Below, piece by piece: positions 26,601 to 29,600 of a stretch of 64,000 nucleotides of DNA. The stretch comes from Hormiphora californensis. Its lineage: Eukaryota > Animalia > Ctenophora. The notes beneath the pieces were generated by a model. That model was not told the origin of the DNA. It worked only from the letters and a program-made list of their open reading frames with translations, and did no database searches. How positions within the stretch are numbered: position 1 is the first letter of the stretch; every line of letters begins with the position of its first letter. The position numbers were made by a program, and so were the translations under genes. The stretch is taken from positions 2,232,001-2,296,000 of the forward strand of contig CM035351.1 of assembly GCA_020137815.1 (NCBI GenBank), in the 5' to 3' direction.

Positions 26601-29600
26601 GCCAGATGAGGGAGAAGGGGAGAGCAGTATCCAGAGGGGACATGTTCGGGTAGCACGATACAATGTAGGGCCGTTACATGGCTCCAACCAGCCTTCTTCT
26701 CACTTTCATTGATGCTTTGTCTCAGCAGTTCCTCCCGTTCCACTGACATGTTATCTGAATTAGAACATTGGTCACGTGTCATGTTAGCTGAATTAGAACA
26801 TTGGTCACGTGACATGTTATCTGAATTAGAACATTGGTCACGTGACATGTTATCTGAATTAGAACATTGGTCACGTGACATGTTATCTGAATTAGAACAT
26901 TGGTCACGTGACATGTTATCTGAATTAGAATATTGGTCACGTGACATGTTATCTGAATTAGAACATTGGTCACGTGACATGTTAGCTGAATTAGAACATT
27001 GGTCACGTGACGTCATGACCAAATATGGTCACTTAGCGTGACATGCCAGCCGCCAGGCTGTGGAACACAGCCCTTTCTACTACATCCCCTCGCTTTAACC
27101 TTTGTTTCTGTATCTCAAGGGCTGTCATACAAAACATGAATTAGTCAGAAAGGAACTTCGAGCTGCTGTGTGTTATACAAGATCGTTCTTTTACTTCTTC
27201 TTTTACTTCTTCTTTTTATTCTTTTTTACGTTTTGTAGGGGATTTGTTCTCACGATAATAATGCTTGATAGAAAAGCTTTACACCACTGTCGACAGTCTA
27301 ACTTTAGCTTACTACATGCGAAAGATCGTTACAATTTCCTTTATGTTTTGTAGTTCGTGCCAACTAGAGCTACTAAAGTCAATGTCCCTGACTGAATTTG
27401 GTATTGTTAACACTTAAACAGAAAGGAAACAGTTAGGTTTGCTGACCAGACAGCTTGAGATGGCACTGATCAAGCGTCCAGTTTATATTGAGGAAAGCGA
27501 TCTTGCAGGACCTATAGCGAAGCATTGGGCAGTTTTTGTGGGTGACGACGAACTGTATGAAATTACAAGAGGACCCGGAAAAGCAGTGGGGAAATCGATT
27601 GTTCAAAAGGATATATGGGGCAAGAACTCTAACTCGAAGTAATATTGGTCTTATTGCTGAACAACCAATCTCTGCTCATATATCAGCATAATATTATTTA
27701 CAATTTTTCAGAATATTTATAAATGGAGGGTTAACTGGTGCACCATCTTTTGCAAGATGGAGAAATGAACAGCGCTGTTTCTTATCAGGTATTTGGCTGG
27801 ACCTAAAGATATTATATTATGACGATACAAAGCAGAGTTTGTTGATCAATAATTCATGAATCATGATAGCGAAACAGTGAGCAACTATTAGTTAGTCTGA
27901 TTAGTGATATTTACACTTCTCAGGTTATAACACCAAGATTCCTTCCGAAATTCAATTATTTAATCTAAAGTGGCTTGACGATCATGACGATTACGAACTT
28001 TTTGCTACCAACTGCCAGGGATATGCCCACGATTTATGCAAGTTTCTAATTGGCCCTACGTTCCAAGTCCCTAACATCCCTCAAGCTGCAAGCCTGACTT
28101 GGAAAAGCGGTCCCGGGTATTCAACAGAACAGTGAGTGTGTTATCCACTCGTTTTATATATAGTTAGTAGAATAGGGATGGAACTAAATACTGTAAACAT
28201 ACTAATATCTGTTGTTTGTTTCTATTTGTATTTGCGCTCACCCTGTGATATAGTAGAGTCGATAACTACATCGACCTCTCCCAATTGTTCCAGTTTTTGT
28301 CACATCTGTTTGGAGCCTCGACACGACCTCTAAACAGGTGTTACTTTTTCACAAACTGTTTTCATCTTGGTGTAATCAGCAGTTGAAATGTTGCTGATCA
28401 TAACAAAAACCTGACTAAATTTTTTCAACTTGGGGTAAAACCATGGGTGTCAAAAGTTAGCTCTAGGTCCCCTGAGTAACCATCCGGAGACTCTAAGAGA
28501 TATTTGAAGCCGTTCTCCCGTAATCATTAATCCCGGTGGAGAAAAAAAATACAATGCGGACGTACGTGAGCGCTGGCAGGCTGTTTACATGTTATTGTAT
28601 GTCTCTCACTCTCTCTGGAAAAACCGCACGTGCGGTTGCGCCGCGCGAGATAACTCTTTCTCAAGGGGGAGAAAAGAGAGAGACGCACATTAACGTTATA
28701 CATTAAAGTTGAGGTTGTAGGCAATTGCACGTACGTCCATACTCAAATATGTGCTCTACCGGGATTAATGATTACAGGAGAACGGCTTCAAATATCTCTT
28801 AGAGTCTCCGGATGGTTACTCAGGGGACCTAGAGCTAACTTTTGACACCCATGGTTTTACCCCAAGTTGAAAAAATTTAGTCAGGTTTTTGTTATGATCA
28901 GCAACATTTCAACTGCTGATTACACCAAGATGAAAACAGTTTGTGAAAAAGTGACACCTGTTTAGAGGTCGTGTCGAGGCTCCAAACTGATGAGACAAAA
29001 ACTGGAACAATTGGGAGAGGTCGATGTAGTTATCGACTCTACTAATAGAGCACTGTCGGCACCCGGTGCACTGCAACTGTATATGTTTACAGTATTTAGT
29101 TCCATCCCTATTCTACTAACTCTATTTGCCCCATCAGTTGGCGCAGTAAGAATGTTGCTCGCCGCGTCACGGCTGGTAAAATCGGTGGACAGTGGGGTGT
29201 AATTGGGGCCGAGGCCGAGGGACCCAGCGCAGGAGTACAGACCTTGGGTGAAGGAAGTTCTGGGGCGATGGCGAAATTATCCATGGGAAGAGTTGAAGTG
29301 AAAGGGCCGCTTGGAGCAAGGTTAGATTGATTACCCATCATACATAGTTTAGGAATGTCATCAACAAAATATCAAAGTTTTAATTTTACCGAACGTTTTC
29401 TCCTTCAGAGTTCGACTAGAACCCAACTTGGATAGTGGAGTAACTTTCCAGAGTAGACAACTAAGGGCAAAGGTACTTGGCCTGGGATTTAGCATTGGAA
29501 GCAACGGCGTCGGTATTTCTACTCCATTTGGGGGATTCGGATTGGGCAATTCGGGCAAGTAAACAAATTATATATCTGGATTCTGAACTCAGAACTTGTG

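What the first reader, a model, noticed from the sequence alone, without database searches (positions are those of the whole stretch)
27460..29562. Hidden five-exon antisense gene nested in a WDR7 intron: papain-like catalytic domain fused to a Gly-rich beta domain (possible toxin/effector)
Seen: WDR7 intron 26743-29727 holds five + strand exons that splice in phase via canonical GT-AG sites into a 266-aa protein; the ORF track shows only exon 1. Known: an N-terminal HWAVFV followed later by Y.L...NCQ.YA is the His...Asn-Cys order of permuted NlpC/P60 enzymes (PPPDE peptidases, LRAT/PLAAT acyltransferases). Seen: the C-terminal ~110 aa are Gly/small-residue rich with alternating hydrophobic pattern ([11 protein letters not shown]...[22 protein letters not shown]), and there is no obvious signal peptide. 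Inference: an enzyme plus an amphipathic beta-hairpin module could be a protease-activated or lipid-modifying membrane-inserting or amyloid-like effector for defence or cell death. I do not recognise this as a named gene.
Basis: partly seen in the sequence, partly recalled or inferred. Interest (0 to 1): 0.85.

Follow-up and report, generated by a model that had tools for sequence, protein, structure and literature searches.

The report
Papain-like enzyme fused to unknown sheet
A five-exon gene lies backwards inside an intron of another gene, likely in a comb jelly; it encodes a predicted cysteine enzyme joined to an unclassified beta-sheet domain also found alone in fish and crayfish, and it likely acts on membranes inside the cell rather than as a secreted toxin.

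Summary
The gene model is real. Five + strand exons join through GT-AG introns into a 266-aa open frame. A genomic relative (L001) has the same four intron positions and phases, and database proteins carry both halves in the same order (best 42% identity over the length). The N-half is a permuted NlpC/P60 papain-like domain with His22, Glu34, Tyr109 and Cys116 intact; a confident model of a homologue matches DeSI-1/PPPDE best (Z 10.9). The C-half (aa 138-263) is a predicted 13-14-strand amphipathic beta-meander with no Pfam family and no clear solved-fold match. It also occurs without the enzyme in fish and crayfish; some relatives end in CaaX, and some replace it by a hydrophobic helix. Best reading (0.45, inferred): a cytosolic, membrane-directed acyl-hydrolase/transferase. 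Rivals: DeSI-like isopeptidase (0.27), self-activated membrane effector (0.15). No signal peptide was seen, and shared introns argue against recent horizontal transfer. Nesting is common in ctenophores. Verdict: an apparently undescribed domain fusion of a known enzyme superfamily.

The parts
27460..27638 (+). Exon 1 (aa 1-60): start codon, H-box with His22 (27523-27525) and Glu34 (27559-27561)
   Evidence: weak Pfam LRAT E 0.11; family profile E 4e-6
27639..27711 (+). Intron 1, 73 nt, GT-AG, phase 2
   Evidence: same position and phase in L001
27712..27788 (+). Exon 2 (aa 60-86), 77 nt
   Evidence: 77-nt exon at the same place in L001; not hit alone by the profile
27789..27923 (+). Intron 2, 135 nt, GT-AG, phase 1
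27924..28131 (+). Exon 3 (aa 86-155), 208 nt: Tyr109 (27992-27994), catalytic Cys116 (28013-28015), linker, first strands of the C-domain
   Evidence: Pfam Peptidase_C97 E 2.7e-4, 21.2 bits, under the 29.2 cut-off; 208 nt in L001 too
28132..29137 (+). Intron 3, 1006 nt, GT-AG, phase 2; holds two nested inverted repeats
   Evidence: L001 intron at this site is 55 nt
28251..29044 (.). High-copy foldback element (MITE-like), 291-nt arms 98% complementary; a passenger in intron 3
   Evidence: summed contig depth several hundred to over a thousand times that of the flanks in DNA runs X5 and X2
29138..29320 (+). Exon 4 (aa 155-216): Gly-rich beta-meander, first half
   Evidence: 90% identical over 58 aa to P0123
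29321..29408 (+). Intron 4, 88 nt, GT-AG, phase 2
   Evidence: P0123 and P0057 stop at this junction, as exon-only gene calls would
29409..29562 (+). Exon 5 (aa 216-266 and stop): beta-meander, second half
   Evidence: 67% over 51 aa to Pleurobrachia bachei P0094
26743..29727 (-). Host intron of a large WD40 gene (WDR7-like by recalled motifs), GT-AG, phase 1; also holds a 33-nt minisatellite at about 26744-27040
   Evidence: WD40 matches in other host exons; one RNA contig on the downstream host exon, 26583-26719

Best explanation
The locus is an intact nested gene for a two-domain protein: a predicted permuted NlpC/P60 cysteine enzyme joined to a predicted amphipathic beta-sheet that likely brings it to membranes, where it would cut or transfer acyl (ester or amide) bonds of lipids or lipid-modified proteins. 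Shown: gene structure, family, domain order, conserved His/Glu/Tyr/Cys. Predicted on a 42%-identical homologue: both folds. Inferred: cytosolic location (no signal peptide), thioester acyl-enzyme chemistry on Cys116 activated by His22 and Glu34, membrane targeting by the hydrophobic face of the sheet, and a lipid-type substrate. The position inside the host intron is likely incidental.
For: Catalytic set: H-box His, downstream Glu and Y-x5-NCQ all present in 86 of 89 fetched sequences that span His to Cys (redundant cluster members, the window and L001 included). Fold: DeSI-1 Z 10.9 (rmsd 2.3, 105 aligned), CLN5 8.0, TseH 7.5, Aichi virus 2A 5.8, PLAAT4 5.8. PMC3142127 (passages and section 11): permuted members have hydrophobic S1 pockets; the Cys-His-Glu triad is that of the lipid-linked YiiX/BcPPNE, while PPPDE1 has Phe there. 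Membrane hints from relatives: 10 fetched C-domain proteins on two tree branches end in CaaX (CTVM, CSIM, CSVM); P0008, P0010 and P0004 have the same enzyme domain followed by a hydrophobic helix instead of the sheet (hydropathy peaks 2.0, 1.5, 1.9), the PLAAT layout (PMC11989323, passages). The sheet has one conserved hydrophobic face.
Against: The nearest solved structure and the commonest Pfam match are the DeSI/PPPDE isopeptidases (Peptidase_C97 in 32 of 40 alignment members against LRAT in 13 of 40, at E up to 1), not lipid enzymes. The window protein itself has no CaaX, no terminal Phe (57 of 75 complete C-domains end in Phe) and no membrane helix (hydropathy peak 1.07). The hydrophobic face could be buried in an oligomer or against the enzyme domain instead of facing lipid. 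No substrate, localisation or expression datum exists for any member. The window's enzyme domain sits on a long branch (1.99 changes per column against a median of 0.23), so its specificity may differ from its relatives'.
Confidence: 0.45

Rival explanations
1. A DeSI/PPPDE-like isopeptidase that removes SUMO, ubiquitin or another ubiquitin-like tag, with the beta-sheet as a protein-binding platform or anchor.
For: Best structural matches are 3ebq and 2wp7 (Foldseek probability 1.00, E 1.8e-3 and 5.5e-3; Z 10.9). The family profile's best PDB sequence hits are the same two (E 0.02-0.03), aligning the Tyr/Asn-Cys motif and the helix after it. C97 members act as deubiquitinases or deSUMOylases (PMC10318531, passages).
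Against: Pfam C97 scores stay under the cut-off for exon 3 (21.2) and for full-length P0006 (19.9 against 29.2); only P0095 reaches it. The third triad position is Glu, not Phe as in PPPDE1. Identity in the structural match is about 20%. Swapping of the sheet for a hydrophobic helix, and CaaX tails, point to membranes.
Confidence: 0.27
2. One reading: the enzyme domain cleaves off or primes the beta-sheet, which oligomerises on or in a membrane (pore, spike or amyloid-like) for defence or cell death.
For: The sheet exists without the enzyme in annotated fish and crayfish genes, with at least two loci in Triplophysa rosa, so it has a function of its own. Strict hydrophobic/polar alternation with Gly turns suits self-association. 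No family or fold explains the domain.
Against: Predicted strands are mostly 5-9 residues, short for crossing a bilayer (the length argument is my own knowledge). Gasdermin and RCD-1 rows are at noise level (Foldseek E 0.09 and worse, TM under 0.2; Z 4.5, rmsd 11.5). The two domains are predicted with a fixed relative position (pTM 0.88), unlike a loose pro-domain.
Confidence: 0.15
3. A secreted toxin or a recently transferred bacterial effector.
For: Structural likeness to the type VI effector TseH (Z 7.5); an ESM Atlas cluster that is 73% bacterial scores 0.92 with the C-domain, a lead only.
Against: No hydrophobic N-terminal leader in the window protein (peak 0.85 over 11 residues) or in L001 and the closest homologues. 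Four introns shared with L001. Relatives with an organism shown are all animals: a ctenophore, a fish, a crayfish. TseH likeness is the shared superfamily fold.
Confidence: 0.05
4. A decaying or silent copy.
For: Long branch of the enzyme domain; a transposon-like insert in intron 3.
Against: Open frame over five exons, 4 of 4 canonical introns, catalytic residues kept; no substitutions in the exons in two DNA runs of two samples; a 90% identical exon-4 match elsewhere.
Confidence: 0.05

Closest known systems
PPPDE / DeSI-1 (Peptidase_C97, PF05903; PDB 2wp7, 3ebq)
   Same: Permuted papain-like fold, His before Cys, Tyr seven residues before Cys, best structural and profile match.
   Different: Glu instead of Phe at the third triad site; below the Pfam cut-off in nearly all members scanned; C-terminal beta-meander instead of the helices that follow the catalytic helix in PPPDE1.
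PLAAT1-5 / LRAT (H-box/NC proteins, PF04970)
   Same: HWAV-type H-box and NC motif; enzyme followed by a C-terminal module; relatives P0008/P0010/P0004 have the enzyme-plus-hydrophobic-helix layout.
   Different: Triad Cys-His-Glu, not Cys-His-His/Asn; weaker structural match (Z 5.8); no hydrophobic tail or Pro-rich N-terminus in the window protein.
YiiX/BcPPNE (C92), CLN5 and TseH
   Same: Permuted NlpC/P60 core; Cys-His-Glu triad documented for YiiX/BcPPNE; CLN5 Z 8.0 and TseH Z 7.5.
   Different: No sequence-level family match; none carries the beta-meander; no signal peptide here.
Uncharacterised fish and crayfish proteins (Triplophysa rosa LOC130553235/LOC130553240; Cherax quadricarinatus LOC128695028)
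   Same: Homologous C-domain (E 5e-11 and 6e-20 to the C-domain profile).
   Different: They lack the enzyme domain; the fish ones end in CaaX; no function is recorded.
Nested intronic genes of ctenophores
   Same: Whole gene within one host intron; PMC8527503 (section 38) counts 2357 such genes in Hormiphora californensis, 12.24% of exonic bases.
   Different: Nothing special in kind; conservation of this nesting site was not testable.

Membership tests
Permuted NlpC/P60 papain-like superfamily | Catalytic His precedes catalytic Cys in the sequence | tested here: met
   His22 and Cys116; conserved in 16 of 16 seed sequences
Permuted NlpC/P60 papain-like superfamily | Third polar triad residue and Tyr near the Cys | tested here: met
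   Glu34 in 97 of 97 ungapped rows, Tyr109 in 96 of 97; roles from PMC3142127
Permuted NlpC/P60 papain-like superfamily | Core fold (beta-sheet plus catalytic helix) | tested here: met
   Model of homologue P0006 (pLDDT 87.8): five permuted members among the top eight VIA rows, best Z 10.9, rmsd 2.3, 105 aligned. The window's own spliced protein was not folded.
Permuted NlpC/P60 papain-like superfamily | His and Cys side chains adjacent in space; catalytic activity | not testable with these tools
   Model coordinates are not returned; adjacency is inferred from the superposition
PPPDE / Peptidase_C97 | Pfam PF05903 gathering score 29.2 | tested here: inconclusive
   Exon 3 alone 21.2; P0006 19.9; P0095 29.2; the spliced window protein was not scanned
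PPPDE / Peptidase_C97 | Non-polar residue (Phe in PPPDE1) at the third triad position | tested here: not met
   Invariant Glu here against Phe in PPPDE1; equivalence taken from the sequence pattern
PPPDE / Peptidase_C97 | deSUMOylase or deubiquitinase activity | not testable with these tools
   needs an assay
PLAAT/LRAT | H-box and NC motifs | tested here: met
   HWAV and NCQ; weak hits of exon 1 to PLAAT3 structures, E 0.3-0.4
PLAAT/LRAT | Cys-His-His or Cys-His-Asn triad | tested here: not met
   Third residue is Glu; PLAAT triads from PMC11989323
PLAAT/LRAT | C-terminal hydrophobic membrane segment | tested here: not met
   19-residue hydropathy peak 1.07 in the window protein; present in P0008/P0010/P0004
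PLAAT/LRAT | Pfam PF04970 gathering score 24.3 | tested here: not met
   Exon 1 13.3 bits; best E 0.005 among 40 alignment members
Secreted or beta-pore-forming toxin | N-terminal signal peptide | tested here: not met
   Hydropathy check only; no dedicated predictor available
Secreted or beta-pore-forming toxin | Fold of a known pore-former (gasdermin, aerolysin, MACPF) | tested here: inconclusive
   No row at Z 8 or more or E 0.001 or less for the C-domain model
Secreted or beta-pore-forming toxin | Homo-oligomer formation | not tested

The most novel reading that the evidence does not exclude
The Gly-rich beta-meander is an undescribed animal membrane-attack or membrane-remodelling module, spread from comb jellies to fish, that assembles on membranes by its hydrophobic face (prenyl-anchored in some lineages); in the fused form it carries its own papain-like activator or payload, making a one-gene cell-death or defence device unrelated in fold to gasdermins or MACPF proteins.
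Probability: 0.13. Interest if true: 0.85.

Novelty: new variant of a known kind. Interest (0 to 1): 0.52.

Why it matters
It defines an apparently unnamed animal family: a PPPDE-like cysteine enzyme with a swappable C-terminal module (beta-sheet, beta-sheet plus CaaX, or hydrophobic helix), and it ties an unclassified domain of fish and crayfish to an enzyme partner, which gives that domain a first testable role. Permuted NlpC/P60 enzymes switch between isopeptidase and lipid chemistry; this family has DeSI-like shape with a Cys-His-Glu triad and membrane hints, so it is a good test of what sets that switch. The nesting is ordinary for a ctenophore.

Tried and rejected
Their hits lay on the intron-3 repeat, simple repeats and one host exon. 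These are contigs, five of the six from metagenomes, so this shows no absence. Whole genome: not held, so paralogues and synteny could not be checked; no second copy in the window. First protein search (exon 3, longer proteins) found 0 of 4 candidates. In one search, 2 of 12 hits (P0001, P0002) are repeat-rich bacterial-type proteins matched by chance and were dropped. Prokaryotic, viral and mobile relatives: none in viral contigs, plasmids, phages or bacterial/archaeal genomes (101, 106); these searches see close relatives only. NCBIfam and PHROGs gave nothing significant for 12 proteins each. C-domain fold: best Z 6.0 with rmsd 10, then beta-barrels, LptG, TamB and similar meanders; no Foldseek match at E 0.001 in PDB or BFVD; this shows neither a match nor a new fold. 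Atlas 'named' clusters scored under 0.9. Literature: searches for PPPDE with ctenophore, LRAT/PLAAT/invertebrate/glycine-rich/permuted (22), PPPDE/jellyfish/venom (99), PPPDE/fused/glycine-rich/invertebrates/domain architecture (113) and the named gene identifiers (112; only number-string matches in unrelated papers among the 15 listed of 130) showed no paper on this family in the listings; the library lacks most subscription papers, and the supplement of PMC10318531 on its 21 new families was not opened. Rejected: a transmembrane beta-barrel monomer (short strands), ankyrin/titin/F-box hits of single exons (motif-level chance), recent horizontal transfer.

Full report
Observation. The sequence shows five + strand exons (27460-27638, 27712-27788, 27924-28131, 29138-29320, 29409-29562) separated by four GT-AG introns of 73, 135, 1006 and 88 nt. 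Joined, they read as 266 codons and a stop. They lie inside a - strand intron, 29727-26743, with GT-AG ends in frame between two host exons. Other exons of the host carry WD40 repeats.

Independent support for the gene model. A HMMER search of 1.84 billion representatives with exon 3 gave 12 hits, 10 of them one family. Several are continuous proteins that match the spliced product end to end: P0041 and P0006 at 42% identity over residues 3/4-263, E 8e-58 and 3e-54 in local comparison. Profile searches widened the set to 28 proteins (7994 candidates scored) and 56 for the C-domain (7992 scored). Among fetched sequences 41 have both domains complete, the window and L001 included and cluster members not merged. 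Locus L001, a genomic relative from a metagenome (1 of 184 candidate stretches), has five exons with the same four intron positions and phases (2,1,2,2), and exons 2 and 3 are 77 and 208 nt in both. Profiles built without the window protein pick out exons 1, 3, 4 and 5 from 2650 six-frame segments. In a more distant branch, P0045 has a 26-residue insert and an early stop relative to P0038, as expected if one is a genomic read-through and the other a spliced message; this is indirect evidence that the family is transcribed. DNA runs X2 and X5, of two samples, cover all exons with no substitution. RNA evidence for this locus was not obtained (see Tried and rejected).

Lineage. In the C-domain tree the window groups with P0123 (100/99; 90% identical over exon 4) and then with Pleurobrachia bachei P0094 (93/90, below the tool's bar for strong support). 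P0094 shares the last six residues; its N-terminal part does not match the enzyme domain and may be mis-predicted. The host is therefore likely a ctenophore (inference). In Hormiphora californensis 2357 genes are nested in introns (PMC8527503, passages and section 38), so the nesting itself is ordinary.

The enzyme half. His22, Glu34, Tyr109, Asn115, Cys116 and Gln117 are kept in 16 of 16 seed sequences, and the three motifs together in 86 of 89 sequences that span the domain. The window's spliced protein could not be handed to the folding tool, so P0006 was folded with a 40-row alignment: pLDDT 87.8, pTM 0.88. Foldseek ranks PPPDE1 (3ebq) and DeSI-1 (2wp7) first (probability 1.00, E 1.8e-3 and 5.5e-3). 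VIA-align over 48,161 chains gives DeSI-1 Z 10.9 (rmsd 2.3, 105 aligned), CLN5 8.0, TseH 7.5, Aichi virus 2A 5.8 and PLAAT4 5.8. Pfam gives Peptidase_C97 in 32 of 40 rows and LRAT in 13 of 40 at loose thresholds, at or under the cut-offs where scores were shown. PMC3142127 (passages, section 11) lists the catalytic set as Cys, His, a polar third residue and a Tyr; the third residue is Glu in YiiX and BcPPNE and Phe in PPPDE1, and the S1 pocket is hydrophobic in all three. PLAATs use Cys-His-His/Asn and reach damaged membranes through a C-terminal hydrophobic domain (PMC11989323, passages). So this is a member of the permuted NlpC/P60 superfamily, nearest in shape to PPPDE, but it should not be filed under C97 or LRAT without reserve. 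The window's enzyme domain is on a long branch (1.99).

The C-terminal half. It spans residues 138-263. Folded alone (P0098, 64 rows) it is a meander of 14 strands, pLDDT 89.2, pTM 0.74; in the full model it has 13. Column statistics show strict alternation: one face Ala/Val then Leu/Ile/Phe, the other Glu/Arg/Lys/Gln then Gly/Ser, with Gly turns. No Pfam, NCBIfam or PHROG family fits, no PDB sequence matches, and fold searches return only generic sheets (best Z 6.0, none at 8 or more). The domain occurs without the enzyme in annotated genes of the fish Triplophysa rosa and the crayfish Cherax quadricarinatus; many of the other 55 C-only sequences are probably fragments. ESM Atlas places it near unnamed clusters that are mostly chordate (0.92, two clusters) and one mostly bacterial (0.92), which is a lead only. 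Tails vary: 57 of 75 complete domains end in Phe; 10 proteins end in CaaX, on two branches (fusions P0108, P0119 and kin; the fish proteins); and P0008, P0010 and P0004 carry a hydrophobic helix in place of the sheet. The window protein has none of these tails.

Mechanism. I commit to a cytosolic cysteine acyl-hydrolase/transferase that the sheet brings to membranes (0.45). Shown: gene, family, conserved catalytic residues. Predicted: folds. Inferred: location, membrane binding and substrate class, from the interchange of sheet, CaaX and hydrophobic helix and from the lipid bias of permuted NlpC/P60 enzymes. The DeSI-like isopeptidase reading (0.27) has the best structural match on its side. 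A secreted or transferred toxin (0.05) conflicts with the missing leader and the shared introns; searches for prokaryotic and viral relatives were negative but insensitive.

Novelty. I found no description of this fusion or of the sheet domain in the searches named under Tried and rejected, which cover open-access text only; PMC10318531 (outline and passages) lists C97, C92, LRAT and Calici_PP_N as permuted families and does not mention such a fusion in the passages seen. Earlier scan notes hold one other nested LRAT-like gene in another genome (e1-7499858), not checked here, and nothing resembling this sequence. Verdict: a new variant of a known enzyme kind, with one unclassified domain; interest 0.52.

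Noticed in passing
window 28251-29044: High-copy foldback element with 291-nt arms, flanked by ATA on both sides; one contig in DNA run X2 joins 28247 to 29045, like an empty site. It sits inside an older 44-nt inverted repeat (28158-28201 / 29082-29125) whose stem would bring the two ends of intron 3 close together.
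   Followed up: partly
window 28250-28905, RNA run X20: RNA contigs of the foldback element differ mostly by T>C (23 places) and A>G (7), the pattern of A-to-I hyper-editing of double-stranded RNA; X15 and X16 each show 6 A>G. Copy variants of the repeat could mimic this; no matched DNA was compared.
   Followed up: no
P0008, P0010, P0004 (database proteins): Same enzyme domain followed by a hydrophobic helix instead of the beta-sheet: a PLAAT-like layout in a PPPDE-like family.
   Followed up: partly
P0094 (Pleurobrachia bachei sb|3471543): Closest named relative; its C-domain is intact but its N-terminal 70 residues do not match the enzyme domain, which suggests a wrong-frame gene model or a degenerate copy.
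   Followed up: no
window 26744-27040: 33-nt minisatellite, about 9 copies, starting right at the host intron's 3' splice site; every copy holds acceptor-like AG sites on the - strand.
   Followed up: no
window 33489-37811 (+) and 40154-41269 (-): Long ORFs that look like non-LTR retroelements (a 962-aa endonuclease/reverse transcriptase frame followed directly after a 477-aa RT frame; a 371-aa RT-tail fragment), by recalled motifs; the first two lie between exons of the WD40 host gene.
   Followed up: no
window 1902-4778, 6587-9058, 13895-15608, 42677-53918 (all -): Neighbouring genes that look like MAU2, a SUN-domain SUCO-like protein, FAM214/ATOS and PRP8, by recalled motifs only.
   Followed up: no
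P0040, P0060 (ENA contigs of 197 kb and 1.0 Mb): Full-length family members called as single open frames on large contigs, so apparently intron-less in that lineage, unlike the window and L001.
   Followed up: no
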